From assembly GCF_057098645.1 (NCBI RefSeq), contig NZ_CM169472.1: a stretch of DNA of 64,000 nt; one strand, 5' to 3'. Of the stretch, positions 54,501 through 63,500 are shown one piece after another. Position numbers: made by a program. The first letter of the stretch is position 1. Each line of letters opens with the position of its first letter.

Positions 54501-57500
54501 GCTCAGTCCCGGTAACGTGACGATTAACTGTTTCTATATTAATGATTTTGAATTTTTCAGGGGAAAGATAATGCACGACTCACTAACTATTGCGTTGCTC
54601 CAGGCGCGAGAAGCGGCGATGAGTTATTTTCGCCCAATCGTTAAACGGCATAATTTGACTGAGCAACAGTGGCGCATCGTGCGTATTCTGGCGGAAAGCC
54701 CATCAATGGATTTTCACGATCTGGCGTATCGCGCCTGCATTTTGCGCCCAAGCCTGACCGGGATCCTCACGCGGATGGAACGCGACGGTTTAGTGTTGCG
54801 ATTAAAGCCGATCAATGATCAGCGGAAGCTCTATATCTCGCTAACCAAAGAGGGGCAGGCGCTGTATAACCGCGCCCAGACACAGATTGAAGAAGCCTAT
54901 CGGCAGATTGAAGCTCAGTTTACTGCCGAGAAAATGCAACAGTTAACCCATCTGTTAGAGGAATTTATTGCTCTGGGCAATTCCCGACAAGAAGACATCC
55001 CGGGCGATAATGAATAACTTTTTAGTATCTGATAACCAGCGCCTGGTTTTTCCATGGATGGCGGGTTACACCTTTTCATAAAGTTTTTGCTTTCCAGGCC
55101 GAAAATCTTGCATCGGTCCACAGGAAAGAGAAACCATGTTAAAACGTATCAAGATCGTGACCAGCTTACTGCTGGTTTTGGCCGTTTTTGGCCTTTTACA
55201 ACTGACATCAGGCGGTCTGTTCTTTAATGCCTTAAAGAATGACAAAGAAAATTTCACTGTTTTACAAACCATTCGCCAGCAGCAATCCACGCTGAATGGC
55301 AGCTGGGTCGCGTTGTTGCAGACGCGTAACACCCTCAACCGCGCGGGTATCCGCTACATGATGGATCAGAATAATATTGGTAGCGGTTCAACCGTTGCTG
55401 AGCTGATGCAGAGTGCCAGTATTTCGCTGAAACAGGCGGAAAAAAACTGGGCGGATTACGAAGCGTTGCCGCGTGACCCGCGTCAGAGCACCGCCGCAGC
55501 GGCAGAGATCAAACGTAATTACGATATTTATCACAATGCGCTGGCGGAGCTGATCCAACTGTTAGGTGCAGGCAAAATCAACGAGTTCTTTGATCAGCCA
55601 ACCCAGGGATATCAGGACGGTTTCGAGAAGCAGTATGTGGCTTACATGGAGCAAAACGATCGGCTCTATGATATCGCCGTCAGCGATAACAATGCCTCCT
55701 ACAGCCAGGCGATGTGGATTCTGGTGGGCGTGATGATCGTCGTACTGGCGGTCATCTTCGCCGTCTGGTTCGGTATTAAAGCCTCGCTGGTAGCGCCAAT
55801 GAATCGTCTGATTGACAGCATTCGTCATATTGCAGGCGGCGATCTGGTGAAACCAATTGAGGTGGATGGCTCTAATGAGATGGGGCAACTGGCAGAGAGT
55901 TTGCGCCATATGCAGGGAGAGCTGATGCGTACCGTCGGTGATGTGCGCAACGGGGCCAATGCCATTTATAGCGGTGCCAGCGAAATCGCCACCGGCAATA
56001 ACGATCTCTCTTCGCGCACCGAGCAACAGGCCGCTTCGCTGGAAGAGACGGCAGCCAGCATGGAGCAACTGACCGCAACGGTGAAACAGAACGCCGAGAA
56101 TGCGCGCCAGGCCAGCCACCTGGCGTTAAGTGCTTCTGAAACGGCGCAACGCGGCGGCAAAGTGGTAGATAACGTGGTGCAGACTATGCGTGATATCTCC
56201 ACCAGTTCGCAGAAAATCGCCGATATTATCAGCGTAATTGACGGCATTGCCTTCCAGACCAATATTCTGGCTTTGAACGCGGCGGTTGAAGCAGCGCGTG
56301 CGGGTGAGCAAGGACGTGGTTTTGCGGTGGTTGCGGGAGAAGTGCGTAATCTGGCCCAGCGTAGCGCTCAGGCGGCTCGTGAAATTAAAAGCCTGATTGA
56401 AGACTCGGTGGGGAAAGTGGATGTTGGCTCTACGCTGGTCGAAAGCGCCGGGGAAACAATGGCGGAGATTGTCAGTGCCGTGACCCGCGTGACGGACATT
56501 ATGGGCGAAATAGCTTCTGCTTCTGATGAGCAGAGCCGTGGTATCGATCAGGTTGGCTTAGCGGTTGCTGAGATGGACCGGGTAACTCAACAGAACGCCG
56601 CGCTGGTGGAAGAATCTGCCGCCGCCGCCGCCGCGCTGGAAGAGCAGGCCAGTCGCCTGACCGAAGCTGTGGCAGTGTTCCGGATTCAGCAACAGCAGCA
56701 ACAGCAGCGTGAAACATCGGCTGTGGTAAAAACCGTGACGCCAGCTGCGCTGCGTAAAATGGCCGTGGCAGATAGCGGGGAGAACTGGGAAACGTTTTAA
56801 CGCAATGACGCCGGATGAGTATTTCATCCGGCGTTTTTATTATTAAACCAGGAACAGTGAAATCGCCGGGATATATGTCACCAGCATTAGCATTAATAGT
56901 AGAGCCGCCAGTAGAGGCAGGGATTGTTTAAAGAAATTTCCCACCGAAACTTGCGTGATGTTACATACCAGCAGCATCACGGTACCTACCGGTGGCGTGA
57001 ATGCGCCAATCGACAGGTTGAAGATCATGATGATGCCAAAATGCACCGGATCGATGCCAAAGTGTTCGACCACCGGTTTTAATAGTGGTACCAGGATCAG
57101 CAAAATGGCGTTTCCTTCCAGAAACATCCCCAGCGTCAGCAGCAATATGTTGATAATTAACAGGAACATATATTTATTTTCGGTCAGCGAAGTCACAAAA
57201 TTCGCCACTGCGACACCAGCATGTTCCATTGAGAAAATCCATCCCAACGCGGCGCTGGCCATGATTACCAGCATCACCGATGCGGTTGCGCGTGCCGTTT
57301 CGCCCAATGCTTTGACGACATGAGAAATCCGCATTTCACGATAGATAAAAAAGCCAATCGCCAGCACGATTAGCACCGCTGCTGCACCTGCTTCTGTTGG
57401 GGTGAAAATGTTAGCGCGAATACCACCCACCACAGCAAAAATGAGGAACAGCGCAGGCCAGGCCTGCCCCAGCGAGAACACCACCTCTTTGCCCGTAGGC

Positions 57501-60500: not shown

Positions 60501-63500
60501 CTGAAAGCTCAAAAATACAACCTAAAGAATTGATCAAGCACAGTCGGGAAATTGTCAGCCTGGCGCTTGTGTTGGTGCTAATCACTATTTTTGGTGTCGG
60601 CTATGTGATTCATTTACTCTTACCGAATGTGCCGCTCATCGCTGCTTTCGCATTAGCCGCCGTGTTGTCGCCTACCGATGCCGTGGCGTTGCTGGGGATT
60701 GTCGGGAAAGGGCGTATCAGCAAAAACATCCAGGAAGTGCTCGAAGGCGAAGCGTTGATGAATGATGCTTCCGGCCTGGTGGCGTTGAAATTTGCTGTTG
60801 CAGTGACGATGGGAACGATGGAATTCAGCGTTCATGGCGCAACCATTGCGTTTTTTGTCGTTGCGTTGGGTGGTATTGCCGTGGGGATCGCTGTTACCTG
60901 GTTATATGGCAAAGGGCTGCTGTTGATCAGTCGATATGCTCACGATGAACCTTCCATTCAGATTGTATTGATGCTTCTGTTGCCGTTTATTGTTTATCTG
61001 GTTGCGGAACATTTTGGCTTATCTGGCATTCTTGCCGCTGTCGCCGCGGGGTTAACAACCAGTCGCATTGGCGTAGTCCACCACGCGCCTATCCGCCTGA
61101 GAATTAAAGCTAAAAGTAGCTGGTCGATGCTTGAATATGTCTTTAACGGCATGGTGTTTCTGATTTTAGGCTTACAACTGCCGGGCATTATTTCGGAATC
61201 ACTGATCCGTGCAGAAAACGATCCACTGGTAGACACCGGATCGCTGCTCCTTGATGTCATTTGGATCTACCTGGCGTTAATGGTTGTGCGCCTGGGCTGG
61301 CTTTGGCTGATGCGTCTGTATAGCCGTAAACGACCCGGCAAACATCCGATGCTGTTTGCTGGATATAAAACGCGTCATATGCTGCTGGCGACCTTTGCGG
61401 GGGGGCGCGGAGCCATCACGCTTGCGGGGGTGCTTTCTATCCCGTTATTGCTGCCGGATGGCACACCTTTTCCCGGGCGTTACTTACTGGTATTTCTCGC
61501 CACAGGTGTGATCCTCTTTTCGCTGGTTTGCGGCATTATTATTCTGCCGTTACTACTGGGGAAAAATGTGGGCATTTTCAGCGATAACCGGCAAAAAGAA
61601 GAGGAAGCTGCCGATCTGTTTATGGCCAAAATGGCCATACTCAGTGTGCAAAAGACTGAGCAACGTTTGCTACGCACCAGTACAGAAAACCTCGACAACG
61701 AGTTGATTATGGAAACAGGGGCCAGAGTTATCGGTTATATGCGGCGTAGCGAAGATGATATGTCGGAAAATGATAATTCTTTACATATGCAGCGCGCGAA
61801 GTTGGAAAGAACATTTAATCTGGCAGCGTTAAATGCCAGGCGTGCGGCTATTTACCAGATGCGTGCACGGCAAGAAGTCAGTGATGAAACACTGGCAAAA
61901 ATAGTCAGTGAATTAGATGTGCTGGAAACGTTAATCATGGATAGCCGATAATTTTATCGCTGCCAGTAATAGGGAGTTAAATGATGGCTGAGAGTAATAC
62001 TTCCAGCATCGTTTATTCCCTATGTATTTCCTTATGGGCAGAACAATCGCCTGAATTAATACTGCATTAATACAACATAGTGATATAAACCAAGAATCAA
62101 TGTTTTTAATCTGTACTTAATTTATCGGTGATGTTGCCTGATGGAACGAATCATTGATTGTTTGGCGGTATCCAGATGGTTTCGCAACGCCGTTATTGCA
62201 TCTAAATCGCTACGGCAAATCAGGGCGCTGAGAATGGTCATATGCTCATCAACAGCAATGATATTGCGCTGCTTGAGATCGCTTTCATCCCATTGATAGT
62301 GAAAATGAAAGATCACCGAGATAATTTCAAGTGATTGATTAAAAAAGATGTTGTCAGCAGCGGATAACAGCATGGCATGAAAATCACGGTCTAATTGAGA
62401 AAACATCCGAAAGTTGCTGCCAATGCTGTCGCGCAATGTCCTGTGACGTTCGAGCATGGTTTTCGCCTGCAACCAGCGGGGATCGTCATCGGGAAGGTTG
62501 AGAAAGTGTTGCAGGGAATGTGTTTCGAGCATTTCGCGTAGCTCAAACAGCTGCTCGGCGTAGGATTGATCGAACTGCTTCATGCTCCACTGGCCGCGCT
62601 TTTCGCTTTGAATAAGATTATAACGACCGAATTTCAAAAGATATTCTCGCACCACTACCGGACTGACGCCTGCCGCTCGCGCCAGCTGAAGTTCGGAAAA
62701 GCTTTCTCCGGCGCGTAACTGACGCAGGTTAATCATGGTGAAAAATGCCTGCTCGAAAAGACGGTTTTGCTCTTTCAGCGAGGCCGTGATGCAATCAAAT
62801 CCATCGTTCTGTTCGGGTTTGCGGGCGATAACATAATTTTTCCCCACCAGGGTGAGCACGCCACATGCGCTTAAATGCTGGAGTATGTGGCGTACCGTAG
62901 TGCGACTGATGTTATACATTTCTGCCAGCCCGCTTTGTGAAGGCAGCGGAGAAGGAATATTGCCCCTCGCCATATCTTCAATTACCTGATTTATGACGTT
63001 ATGACGTAAATTCTGCGAACGACTCATTCTTCCCTCCAGTTCGGCATTAAAAACCGATTTAAAACATTTTTATGCGTGATCATCCGCATATTTTATGGGT
63101 AAATTCAGGCGCTCTTATAAATTCGACGATATCTGAAAGTCATAAAATAAAAGGAGCGGTGAATCATGTCCACAATGAAAGTATTAATTTGTCAGGAAAT
63201 AAAGAATTTAGTATGGGAAGTCCGGGAAAGACCGGTGCCAGGCGATAATGAAGCATTAATAAAAATTAAAACTGTCGGGATTTGCGGTACAGATATTCAT
63301 GCCTGGGCGGGCAATCAACCATTTTTTAGTTATCCACGCGTTTTAGGCCATGAAATATGTGGGGAGATTATTGAATCAGGAAAAAACATTCACAATTTTA
63401 ATATCGGACAGCAAGTTGCGGTAATTCCGTATATTTCTTGTCAGCAATGCCCGGCGTGTAAAAGCGGGCGTACAAATTGCTGTGAAAAAATTTCAGTCAT

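What the first reader, a model, noticed from the sequence alone, without database searches (positions are those of the whole stretch)
56843..61951. TRAP transporter operon plus cation/proton antiporter where K-12 has lgoT
Between tsr and lgoR, K-12 carries the MFS L-galactonate transporter gene lgoT (yjjL). This window has a dctPQM-type TRAP operon and a divergently oriented CPA1 antiporter gene instead, with lgoR and lgoD intact next door. TRAP systems typically import organic and sugar acids using a cation gradient, so this module may have replaced the MFS uptake route for L-galactonate or a related aldonate, with the antiporter supplying ion homeostasis. E. coli otherwise has few TRAP systems.
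Basis: partly seen in the sequence, partly recalled or inferred. Interest (0 to 1): 0.55.

Follow-up and report, generated by a model that had tools for sequence, protein, structure and literature searches.

The report
Alternative L-galactonate transporter cassette in E. coli
In about one in six E. coli strains the proton-driven L-galactonate importer lgoT is replaced, at the same chromosomal spot, by a three-part sodium-type TRAP importer plus a Na+/H+ antiporter; this explains a published "gene avoidance" pattern but is a fairly ordinary transporter swap.

Summary
Between tsr and lgoR the window carries dctM-dctQ-dctP (56843-59619, minus strand) and a divergent CPA1 antiporter gene (60299-61951). 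K-12 has lgoT at this position.

The variable block is larger than reported. It runs from the tsr terminator (56808) to about 270 nt inside lgoD (~63436). It includes an lgoR allele only 80% identical in DNA to K-12 lgoR, a genus-level distance.

The binding protein is ~70% identical to a solved TRAP binding protein from a sugar-acid ligand screen. Its relatives sit next to lgoD-like dehydrogenase genes in five other genera. In Citrobacter farmeri this is at the same chromosomal site.

A 20-bp tandem box (ATTAAAAAC-NN-ATTAAAAAC) occurs only three times in 64 kb: upstream of dctP, abutting the lgoR stop codon, and in the lgoR-lgoD promoter region. K-12 has it upstream of lgoT. The TRAP system is therefore most likely the LgoR-controlled L-galactonate importer.

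The antiporter is a later insertion, absent from the Citrobacter and Pectobacterium versions. Its close relatives nevertheless sit beside an unrelated TRAP operon elsewhere, so a sodium-recycling role is plausible but unproven.

The module is in 856 of 5,426 complete genomes and lgoT is in 4,520. The mutual exclusion was already published without this explanation. No function was tested experimentally.

The parts
56807..56835 (.). tsr terminator hairpin between the convergent tsr and dctM genes. It is the left edge of the variable block: K-12 homology ends at 56808.
   Evidence: Terminator-like hairpin with 13 pairs. The blastn alignment to K-12 ends at 56808.
56843..58114 (-). dctM, TRAP large permease (423 aa)
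   Evidence: TIGR00786 397 bits against a cut-off of 268. E 8e-79 to PpSiaM 7QHA_B. 94% aa identical to C. farmeri and 92% to Pectobacterium. dN/dS 0.06 against E2348/69.
58111..58584 (-). dctQ, TRAP small permease (157 aa). It overlaps dctM by 4 nt.
   Evidence: Weak NCBIfam hit to the YiaM model. Orthologues carry PF04290 DctQ. 80% aa identical to C. farmeri.
58648..59619 (-). dctP, periplasmic solute-binding protein (323 aa, N-terminal signal-like segment); candidate L-galactonate/L-fuconate receptor
   Evidence: TIGR00787 182 bits against a cut-off of 175. PDB 4OVT E 4e-146, 4O8M E 6e-80. Model pLDDT 85, TM 0.89-0.95 to 4OVT at 70% identity. R148 and R168 are invariant in 24 orthologues.
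59771..59790 (-). Box 1: ATTAAAAACCGATTAAAAGC, tandem 9-mer repeat, 152 nt upstream of the dctP ATG; candidate LgoR operator
   Evidence: Homologous to the K-12 lgoT-upstream and C. farmeri dctP-upstream sequence. Identical in E2348/69.
59620..60298 (.). 679-bp AT-rich (34% GC) divergent intergenic region between dctP and CPA1. No Rfam match and no convincing ORF.
60299..61951 (+). CPA1-family Na+/H+ antiporter gene (550 aa), a paralogue of K-12 yjcE (59% aa). It lies inside a ~2.3-kb insertion (about 59791-62101).
   Evidence: TIGR00831 526 bits against a cut-off of 280. Identities. Junction alignment. 21-nt flanking direct repeat 2331 nt apart. dN/dS 0.10.
62102..62121 (-). Box 2: ATTAAGTACAGATTAAAAAC, abutting the lgoR stop codon. 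It marks the other junction of the CPA1 insertion.
   Evidence: The same position is occupied in K-12, C. farmeri and Pectobacterium.
62122..63027 (-). lgoR, divergent allele (301 aa): regulator with two winged-helix DNA-binding domains in tandem followed by a GntR-family FCD ligand-binding domain
   Evidence: 80.0% nt / 87.4% aa identical to K-12 lgoR. Pfam GntR 26-61, weak GntR 98-144, FCD 159-286. The AF2 model shows two helix-helix-helix-strand-strand units followed by six helices.
63046..63065 (+). Box 3: ATTAAAAACCGATTTAAAAC in the divergent lgoR/lgoD promoter region
   Evidence: Conserved in K-12, C. farmeri and Pectobacterium.
63166..64000 (+). lgoD (L-galactonate 5-dehydrogenase), cut by the window end. 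The first ~270 nt (to about 63436) belong to the divergent block, so the right recombination edge lies inside the gene.
   Evidence: Sliding identity to K-12. RefSeq annotation.

Best explanation
The tsr-lgoD interval exists in E. coli as two alternative cassettes for one pathway.

In this cassette a DctP-type periplasmic protein binds L-galactonate, and probably also its 6-deoxy analogue L-fuconate. It hands the ligand to the DctQM membrane unit, a TRAP elevator-type symporter expected to be Na+-coupled. LgoD then oxidises L-galactonate to D-tagaturonate, which enters the UxaB/UxaA/KdgK/Eda route.

Expression is most likely set by the cassette's own LgoR allele. LgoR has two winged-helix domains in tandem and probably reads a tandem direct repeat, ATTAAAAAC-NN-ATTAAAAAC. 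The repeat is present upstream of dctP, at the lgoR stop codon and in the lgoR/lgoD promoter region.

The CPA1 Na+/H+ antiporter was inserted later between lgoR and the dctP promoter. It may return co-transported Na+ to the periplasm at the expense of the proton gradient.

The cassette is exchanged between lineages by homologous recombination in the flanking tsr and lgoD sequences. That is why lgoT and the TRAP/antiporter genes never co-occur.

Shown here: gene content, boundaries, homologies, conserved context, the box and the population frequencies. Inferred: ligand, Na+ coupling, LgoR binding and the antiporter's role.
For: Cassette structure and boundaries
- Searches give gene content, the edges of the block and the divergent lgoR.

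Substrate
- The SBP is closest to PDB 4OVT (Ochrobactrum Oant_3902) and 4O8M (Actinobacillus succinogenes). Both are listed among TRAPs with known ligands from Vetting et al. 2015.
- From my own recollection these structures hold L-fuconate and L-galactonate. PMC5507952 states that a TRAP of this study has dual L-fuconate/L-galactonate specificity.
- Orthologous SBP genes adjoin lgoR-lgoD in C. farmeri at the same opgB...tsr site and in Pectobacterium at another site.
- They adjoin LgoD-like ADH plus UxaB-, UxaA- and KdgK-like genes in Brucella, Azospirillum and Pseudomonas.

Regulation
- The box occurs three times, all within this locus, and nowhere else in 64 kb at >=16/18 matches. None of 100 shuffled windows matched either box pattern; at the looser >=14/18 threshold shuffles averaged 0.48 hits.
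- The lgoT promoter of K-12 and the dctP promoters of O145 and Citrobacter are homologous.
- LgoR shows tandem winged-helix domains.

Na+ coupling
- DctM keeps the acidic residues that align with the HiSiaQM Na+-site residues D304 and D521 (mutant data in bioRxiv 2021.12.03.471092).

Selection and frequency
- dN/dS is 0.06-0.10 for dctM, CPA1 and lgoR.
- 818 of 856 carriers have an identical intact 5' end of dctP.
- 856 genomes carry the TRAP cassette and 4,520 carry lgoT, out of 5,426.
- Beavan et al. report that the two never co-occur (PMC10769857).
Against: - No experiment on this system was found. No growth, binding or transport data exist for a TRAP-carrying E. coli.
- The one phenotype lead failed: the type strain grows on L-galactonate lactone but carries lgoT.
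- The ligands in 4OVT and 4O8M could not be read from the tools. The titles are truncated and the Vetting paper is not held.
- The closest solved homologue may prefer L-fuconate.
- The LgoD-like enzymes in the alphaproteobacterial loci are only 35-40% identical to LgoD.
- The box has never been shown to bind LgoR.
- BLAST similarity between the two LgoR N-terminal halves is not significant, and the second Pfam GntR hit is weak (E 0.012).
- dctQ shows dN/dS near 1, though on only 9 changes.
- E2348/69 carries a frameshift in dctP.
Confidence: 0.75

Rival explanations
1. The antiporter is a hitch-hiker. CPA1 was inserted by chance into the lgoR-dctP spacer. It co-occurs with the TRAP genes only because it lies inside the same recombining block, and it serves general Na+/K+/pH homeostasis like its paralogue YjcE, with no functional tie to the TRAP system.
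For: - CPA1 is absent from the orthologous TRAP-lgo loci of C. farmeri and Pectobacterium and from the Brucella, Azospirillum and Pseudomonas loci.
- It sits in a discrete 2.3-kb insertion with AT-rich flanks.
- No box lies close to its start codon; the nearest is ~510 nt upstream.
- The Edaphovirga relative is in a plasmid-like context without any TRAP.
- From own knowledge, E. coli already has NhaA, NhaB and ChaA.
Against: - CPA1 relatives at 77% identity in Klebsiella sp. I138 and Limnobaculum are also divergently paired with a TRAP operon, one of a different, TakP-like family (26% identity to ours), across a similar ~700-bp AT-rich spacer.
- Another relative lies two genes from a DASS-type Na+ symporter gene, on the side of a DeoC-like aldolase gene.
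- 0 of 80 YjcE-type loci have a TRAP gene within 8 kb.
- CPA1 is under purifying selection (dN/dS 0.10).
- The sample of independent associations is very small, about two events.
Confidence: 0.5
2. The TRAP system mainly imports a different sugar acid, such as L-fuconate, L-gulonate or another aldonate or uronate, and only sits beside lgoRD. TRAP-carrying strains would then have changed or lost L-galactonate uptake rather than swapped its route.
For: - From my recollection, the closest solved homologue 4OVT (70% identity) holds L-fuconate rather than L-galactonate.
- LgoD also oxidises L-gulonate (title of Kuivanen & Richard 2014, cited).
- No binding data exist for the E. coli protein.
Against: - Linkage of SBP orthologues to LgoD-like, UxaB-like and UxaA-like genes is what L-galactonate catabolism requires.
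- No L-fuconate dehydratase gene lies in the E. coli, Citrobacter or Pectobacterium loci.
- The dctP promoter is homologous to the lgoT promoter and shares the box with the lgoD promoter.
- L-fuconate is 6-deoxy-L-galactonate, and dual specificity is reported for a TRAP of the Vetting study.
Confidence: 0.15
3. The cassette is a decaying remnant. The TRAP genes are no longer functional in E. coli, and carriers have simply lost L-galactonate use.
For: - E2348/69 has a 1-nt deletion in the dctP signal-peptide region.
- 38 of 856 carriers differ in the first 71 nt of dctP.
- Several truncated SBP gene calls appear in the protein database.
Against: - All five genes are intact in the window.
- 818 of 856 carriers have an identical intact dctP 5' end.
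- dN/dS is 0.06-0.10 for dctM, CPA1 and lgoR between lineages with dS 0.05-0.11.
- The boxes are conserved: boxes 1 and 2 are identical and box 3 differs at one base between O145 and E2348/69.
Confidence: 0.05

Closest known systems
TRAP solute-binding proteins Oant_3902 (PDB 4OVT) and Asuc_0158 (PDB 4O8M) from the Vetting et al. 2015 ligand screen; L-fuconate/L-galactonate TRAP systems
   Same: - DctP fold: model TM 0.89-0.95 to 4OVT at 70% identity, and 42% identity to 4O8M.
- DctP-DctQ-DctM gene order.
- Linkage to L-galactonate catabolic genes in relatives.
- A TRAP with dual L-fuconate/L-galactonate specificity is cited in PMC5507952.
   Different: - It lies in E. coli, at the chromosomal slot of lgoT.
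- It is governed by an LgoR-type regulator rather than the regulators seen in the alphaproteobacterial and Pseudomonas loci.
- It is accompanied by a CPA1 antiporter.
- Ligand binding is untested for this protein, and the ligands of the PDB entries are recalled, not read from a tool.
LgoT (YjjL), the MFS anion:cation symporter for L-galactonate in E. coli K-12
   Same: - Same chromosomal slot between tsr and lgoR.
- Homologous promoter and box upstream.
- Same partner genes lgoR and lgoD.
- LgoT is shown to be a specific proton-coupled L-galactonate importer (bioRxiv 10.64898/2026.05.20.726482).
   Different: - It is an unrelated protein family: a single MFS polypeptide, against a binding-protein-dependent three-component TRAP system.
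- Coupling is to H+, against the Na+ coupling expected for TRAP.
- No sequence homology.
SiaPQM sialic-acid TRAP transporters (H. influenzae, P. profundum)
   Same: - DctM aligns over its full length with PpSiaM (E 8e-79) and with the M part of HiSiaQM.
- The acidic residues at the mutationally defined Na+ sites are conserved.
- The conserved SBP arginine is present.
   Different: - SBP identity is only ~27%.
- The substrate differs.
- Q and M are separate genes rather than fused as in HiSiaQM.
YjcE, the CPA1-family putative Na+/H+ antiporter of E. coli K-12
   Same: - Same family (TIGR00831, PF00999) and similar length.
- 59% aa identity.
   Different: - It is a distinct clade at 59% identity.
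- YjcE-type loci never adjoin TRAP genes (0 of 80), whereas this clade does in E. coli, Klebsiella sp. I138 and Limnobaculum.
- Neither protein's activity was tested here.

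Membership tests
TRAP transporter (DctP-type tripartite ATP-independent periplasmic transporter) | Three components encoded together: DctP-family SBP, small DctQ and large DctM membrane subunits | tested here: met
   TIGR00787 182 bits (cut-off 175) and TIGR00786 397 bits (cut-off 268). DctQ gives a weak YiaM-model hit, and PF04290 is found on orthologues. The genes are contiguous, with a 4-nt dctQ/dctM overlap.
TRAP transporter (DctP-type tripartite ATP-independent periplasmic transporter) | Exported SBP with the conserved carboxylate-binding arginine | tested here: met
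   The N-terminus MSKIIAMLITVSTLFLPSIIQA/KP looks like a signal peptide (no predictor was run). R148 and R168 are invariant in 24 orthologues. R168 aligns within about one residue of SiaP R147 by the offsets, which is an inference.
TRAP transporter (DctP-type tripartite ATP-independent periplasmic transporter) | Na+-gradient-dependent, SBP-dependent uptake | not testable with these tools
   Only residue conservation is available. D114 and E333 of DctM align with acidic residues at or near HiSiaQM D304 and D521.
L-galactonate/L-fuconate-specific TRAP SBP group (Vetting et al. 2015) | Close sequence and fold relationship to a member with a solved ligand complex | tested here: met
   4OVT: E 4e-146, 70% identity, TM 0.89/0.95. 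4O8M: E 6e-80, 42% identity.
L-galactonate/L-fuconate-specific TRAP SBP group (Vetting et al. 2015) | Genomic linkage to L-galactonate catabolic genes (lgoD; uxaB/uxaA) | tested here: met
   The window has lgoD ~3.5 kb from dctP. Relatives: C. farmeri, Pectobacterium, Brucella, Azospirillum, Pseudomonas.
L-galactonate/L-fuconate-specific TRAP SBP group (Vetting et al. 2015) | Binding of L-galactonate and/or L-fuconate by the protein itself | not testable with these tools
   This needs DSF, ITC or a crystal structure. The ligands of 4OVT and 4O8M could not be read because the titles are truncated.
CPA1 monovalent cation:proton antiporter family | Full-length match to the family model above the curated cut-off | tested here: met
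   TIGR00831 526 bits against a cut-off of 279.6, model positions 1-525 of 525. PF00999 is found on all homologues.
CPA1 monovalent cation:proton antiporter family | Na+(K+)/H+ exchange activity | not testable with these tools
   No experimental data were found. The K-12 paralogue YjcE is still annotated as 'putative transporter'.
LgoR regulon | A shared cis-element upstream of the regulated operons | tested here: met
   The box ATTAAAAAC-NN-ATTAAAAAC lies upstream of dctP, at the lgoR stop and in the lgoR/lgoD spacer. It is unique to this locus in 64 kb. It is conserved at equivalent places in K-12, C. farmeri and Pectobacterium.
LgoR regulon | LgoR binds the element and responds to L-galactonate | not testable with these tools
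   The only support is structural plausibility: tandem winged-helix domains in LgoR matching a tandem direct repeat with 11-bp period.
Mobile genomic island | Integrase/transposase, tRNA or att-type target, or IS ends at the boundaries | tested here: not met
   No such genes lie in 56.8-63.4 kb. The left edge is the tsr terminator and the right edge lies inside lgoD, with graded identity. This is the pattern of homologous replacement, not site-specific insertion. Only the CPA1 sub-insert has a 21-nt imperfect direct repeat, and that repeat is the box itself.

The most novel reading that the evidence does not exclude
This CPA1 clade could be a dedicated partner of Na+-coupled organic-acid importers. 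On this reading it has been recruited independently next to two unrelated TRAP operons: the L-galactonate system in E. coli and a TakP-like system in Klebsiella sp. I138 and Limnobaculum. It is transcribed divergently from the TRAP operon in both cases. Its job would be to convert the proton gradient into the local sodium cycle the transporter needs. The E. coli cassette would then be a self-contained 'sodium-powered' alternative to the proton-powered LgoT, and the lgoT/TRAP polymorphism a choice of coupling ion maintained by selection.
Probability: 0.25. Interest if true: 0.55.

Novelty: new member of a known kind. Interest (0 to 1): 0.4.

Why it matters
- It gives a concrete mechanism for a published pangenome 'avoidance' example. 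Beavan et al. (PNAS 2023) found that lgoT never co-occurs with siaP/siaT/nhaK and could not say whether the two sets are functionally equivalent.
- They appear to be alternative cassettes at one locus, feeding the same dehydrogenase under the same type of regulator and swapped by homologous recombination. Apparent gene-gene 'competition' can therefore be allelism.
- The other example genes in that paper (hpa, symE, hsdM, mrr, mdtM) also lie within roughly 40 kb of this locus, so physical linkage may explain part of those relationships.
- Practically, metabolic models that score L-galactonate use by the presence of lgoT would wrongly call about 16% of E. coli negative, including O145, O26 and O103 EHEC and many B2 strains.
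- The H+-versus-Na+, low-versus-high-affinity contrast and the recurring antiporter-TRAP pairing are cheap to test.

Tried and rejected
1. Vetting et al. 2015 could not be read (PMC4310620 and its DOI are not held). Full-text searches for 4OVT/4O8M and the EFI target numbers gave nothing useful. The PDB titles from fold search are cut before the ligand name. The ligand identities therefore rest on my memory plus an indirect citation.
2. Phenotype lead. The E. coli type strain is positive on L-galactonic acid-gamma-lactone, but its genome carries lgoT, not the TRAP cassette. The result says nothing about the TRAP system.
3. A search for papers linking L-galactonate with CFT073, Nissle, O145 or EPEC returned nothing relevant.
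I used them as a negative control, not as the intended survey of the CPA1 clade.
5. A tblastn of CPA1 against plasmids found no close plasmid copy. The only 98% hit is a chromosome-sized record.
6. A scan for an ExuR/UxuR-type palindrome recalled from memory (AATTGGTATACCAATT, up to 3 mismatches) found nothing, even near uxuA. The recalled consensus is unreliable and was dropped.
7. The BEN2908 paper's TRAP (GR21, ygiQ..ftsP) is a different locus.
8. Suvorova et al. 2011, which may describe a YjjM motif, is not held.
9. The idea that CPA1 compensates for loss of MdtM's Na+/H+ activity was rejected, because mdtM is present in this window.
10. Rfam found nothing in 56.7-63.3 kb.

Full report
**1. 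What is in the sequence**

ORF listing shows this gene order:
- tsr, 55136-56800 (+)
- dctM, 56843-58114 (-)
- dctQ, 58111-58584 (-)
- dctP, 58648-59619 (-)
- a 679-bp spacer with 34% GC
- a CPA1 antiporter gene, 60299-61951 (+); the ORF opens at 60278, but homologues and RefSeq start at MEIF, 60299
- lgoR, 62122-63027 (-)
- lgoD from 63166 (+), running off the window

Family models agree: TIGR00786 dctM 397 bits (cut-off 268), TIGR00787 dctP 182 bits (cut-off 175), TIGR00831 Na+/H+ antiporter 526 bits (cut-off 280). The window is 100% identical to E. coli O145 strain RM9872, whose annotation matches. K-12 has tsr-lgoT-lgoR-lgoD at this position. The window holds no lgoT, only distant MFS paralogues at 24-26% identity.

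**2. The swapped block is bigger than reported**

Against K-12, identity is 97.7% through tsr and stops at 56808, at the foot of the tsr terminator hairpin. Homology resumes at 62101 but at only about 84%. lgoR is 80.0% nt / 87.4% aa identical to K-12 lgoR. The lgoR-lgoD spacer and the first ~270 nt of lgoD are 65-90% identical. Identity returns to 98-100% at about 63436.

For scale, E. coli against Citrobacter farmeri is 78% nt for lgoR and 81-82% for tsr and opgB. The two E. coli lgoR alleles are therefore as far apart as two genera.

The unit of variation is [dctMQP - CPA1 - lgoR' - promoter - 5' lgoD'] against [lgoT - lgoR - promoter - 5' lgoD]. No integrase, IS or tRNA marks the edges. 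The graded right edge inside lgoD is the signature of homologous replacement.

**3. What the TRAP system carries**

*Homology.* The SBP's best solved relatives are 4OVT (Ochrobactrum anthropi Oant_3902, E 4e-146) and 4O8M (Actinobacillus succinogenes, E 6e-80). An AlphaFold model (pLDDT 85) superposes on 4OVT at TM 0.89/0.95 with 70% identity. Both proteins belong to the Vetting et al. 2015 screen and are listed among TRAPs with known ligands. I recall their ligands as L-fuconate and L-galactonate but could not read this from any tool. PMC5507952 independently states that a TRAP from that study has dual L-fuconate/L-galactonate specificity.

*Genomic context.* This evidence is independent of my recollection.
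- C. farmeri has opgB-lgoD-lgoR-dctPQM-(acetyltransferase)-tsr, the same chromosomal site, with dctP directly after lgoR.
- A Pectobacterium species has lgoR/lgoD-dctPQM at an unrelated site.
- Brucella, Azospirillum and Pseudomonas paeninsulae orthologues (62-71% identity) adjoin an LgoD-like Zn-dehydrogenase. In Brucella and Pseudomonas they also adjoin UxaB-like and UxaA-like genes, with a KdgK-like gene in Pseudomonas. That enzyme set is the one needed to take L-galactonate to KDG-6-P.

*Membrane subunit.* DctM aligns end to end with PpSiaM and HiSiaQM. It keeps acidic residues at the positions whose mutation abolishes Na+-dependent transport in HiSiaQM. The mapping uses alignment offsets and is an inference.

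**4. Regulation**

A 20-bp element made of two 9-mers, ATTAAAAAC-NN-ATTAAAAAC (11-bp period), occurs at three places in the window:
- 59771-59790 (-), 152 nt upstream of the dctP ATG
- 62102-62121 (-), abutting the lgoR stop codon
- 63046-63065 (+), in the lgoR/lgoD spacer

No other copy reaches 16 of 18 matches in the 64 kb. None of 100 shuffled windows matched either box pattern, and at the looser 14-of-18 threshold shuffles averaged 0.48 hits.

The same element sits at the equivalent places in K-12 (lgoD promoter; lgoR stop, which is upstream of lgoT), C. farmeri and Pectobacterium. It is absent from the alphaproteobacterial and Pseudomonas loci, which carry other or far more divergent regulators. 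The sequence following the box is also homologous between the K-12 lgoT promoter and the O145 and Citrobacter dctP promoters...CAGCAAAsTATTAsCsGGTGCACGrwTTTAT.... Whichever transporter is present has therefore been placed behind the same promoter.

LgoR itself shows GntR 26-61, a weaker second GntR hit at 98-144, and FCD 159-286 in Pfam. Its AlphaFold model (pLDDT 78) shows two consecutive helix-helix-helix-strand-strand units before the helical FCD domain. Two winged-helix domains in tandem reading a tandem direct repeat is a coherent picture. It remains an inference, because BLAST similarity between the two halves is not significant.

**5. The antiporter**

Aligning the lgoR-to-transporter spacers shows that in O145 the sequence after the lgoR-stop box diverges. 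It resumes at the dctP-upstream box 2,331 nt away. CPA1 with its AT-rich flanks is thus an insertion between two copies of the box. C. farmeri and Pectobacterium lack it. CPA1 is a 59% paralogue of K-12 YjcE.

Its closer relatives are few.
- Klebsiella sp. I138 and a Limnobaculum MAG (77% identity) both have CPA1 divergent from a GntR-linked TRAP operon across a ~700-bp AT-rich spacer. That TRAP shares only 26% identity with ours, and its SBP resembles keto-acid binders.
- One 78% relative lies beside a DeoC-like aldolase gene and one gene away from a DASS-type Na+ symporter gene.
- An Edaphovirga relative is in a plasmid-like context next to MATE genes.

As a control, 0 of 80 YjcE-type loci from 80 enterobacterial genomes have a TRAP gene within 8 kb. 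This suggests a functional tie between the clade and Na+-coupled acid importers. It rests on about two independent events. CPA1 is under purifying selection (dN/dS 0.10).

**6. Population picture**

- The cassette is in 856 of 5,426 complete E. coli genomes, all chromosomal, and falls into two sequence groups (>=99% and about 97.5% identity). Carriers include O145, O26 and O103 EHEC and B2 strains such as E2348/69.
- lgoT is in 4,520 genomes. The two counts sum to 5,376, leaving about 50 genomes with neither.
- Beavan et al. reported that lgoT never co-occurs with 'siaP, siaT, nhaK'. They called this avoidance and stated that functional equivalence was unclear. Their text mentions neither galactonate nor synteny.
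- Their other example genes (hpa, symE, hsdM, mrr, mdtM) all lie within about 40 kb of this locus. Linkage in this recombination-prone region may explain part of those relationships.
- Between the O145 and E2348/69 versions, dN/dS is 0.06 for dctM and 0.09 for lgoR. dctQ is near 1 on only 9 changes.
- E2348/69 has a 1-nt deletion in the dctP signal-peptide region. 818 of 856 carriers share the intact 71-nt 5' end.

**7. Direction of the swap**

LgoT orthologues at 73-92% identity are widespread in Enterobacterales, including E. albertii, Klebsiella, Kluyvera, Serratia and Pantoea. The TRAP form is rarer: a subset of E. coli, the C. farmeri/amalonaticus group, one Pectobacterium, and Affinibrenneria. 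However, O145 and Citrobacter dctPQM are as diverged as core genes (75-80% nt) and sit at the same site. The three lgoR alleles (K-12, O145, C. farmeri) are mutually equidistant. Which cassette is ancestral in Escherichia is unresolved.

**8. Verdict**

The finding is real, and its main interpretation is well supported by comparative evidence, though by no experiment. It is a case of non-orthologous transporter displacement: a new member of a known TRAP specificity group in a well-studied organism. It has three added points of interest: the co-swapped regulator allele, the shared tandem-repeat box, and the recurrent CPA1-TRAP pairing. Interest is moderate.

Noticed in passing
L010 8001-9653; L095 1133-2782: Two contigs carry hybrids of yjcE and this CPA1 gene. 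A draft E. coli genome has ghxP - [YjcE residues 1-~290 :: CPA1 C-terminus] - lgoR - lgoD. A metagenome contig has dctP (100% identical to this window) - a CPA1-like gene 68% identical to ours - then LysR and LrgAB genes, followed by actP/yjcH-like genes as found near yjcE. I read this second gene as the reciprocal hybrid, but that was not checked position by position. None of 5,426 complete genomes has the first junction, so these are rare ~310-kb rearrangements or assembly chimeras.
   Followed up: partly
L099 4348-5320 (E2348/69), equivalent to window ~59560: EPEC strain E2348/69 has a 1-nt deletion in a C3T7 run inside the dctP signal-peptide region, which frameshifts the gene. RefSeq annotates a shortened 281-aa product without the signal peptide. 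38 of 856 carriers differ somewhere in this 71-nt stretch.
   Followed up: partly
window 56934-57964 (query positions 134-1164): 106 E. coli genomes have a second TRAP large-permease gene 72% identical in DNA to dctM, at another locus. This may be the ygiQ..ftsP island described for strain BEN2908, which also carries YjjN-like and UxuB-like dehydrogenases.
   Followed up: no
window 43754-55074: An ~11-kb hpa (4-hydroxyphenylacetate degradation) cluster, annotated at its tsr-proximal end as hpaD, hpaE, hpaG and hpaR, lies between btsT and tsr where K-12 has only a short spacer. The hpa genes are also among the 'co-occurrence' examples of Beavan et al.
   Followed up: partly
window 37108-40090: The K-12 interval yjiT-mcrBC-symE-hsdSMR-mrr (about 16 kb) is replaced here by about 3 kb holding one 668-aa ORF (37459-39465). 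This is the variable restriction-system region.
   Followed up: no
window 18553-28527: Between kptA and yjiL there are a 1,746-aa ORF (18553-23793) and a 722-aa ORF (26359-28527) with no K-12 counterpart. The yjiJ/yjiK genes between them are only 81% identical to K-12.
   Followed up: no
window 62122-63027: LgoR appears to have two winged-helix DNA-binding domains in tandem before its FCD domain (Pfam plus an AlphaFold model). This is unusual for GntR/FadR-type regulators and fits a direct-repeat operator.
   Followed up: partly
window 59652-59667: A short palindrome, CCGACAACAATGTTGG, followed by a T-run lies about 35 nt upstream of the dctP start codon. It is partly conserved in C. farmeri. 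It could be a leader hairpin or a second protein-binding site.
   Followed up: no
L003 12879-13394: In Citrobacter farmeri a GNAT acetyltransferase gene lies between dctM and tsr. It is absent from the E. coli cassette.
   Followed up: no
L005 7369-7388: Pectobacterium keeps a perfect box (ATTAAAAACCGATTAAAAAC) at the lgoR stop codon even though no transporter gene follows there. It is either a relic of an lgoR-transporter arrangement or a third functional operator flanking lgoR.
   Followed up: no
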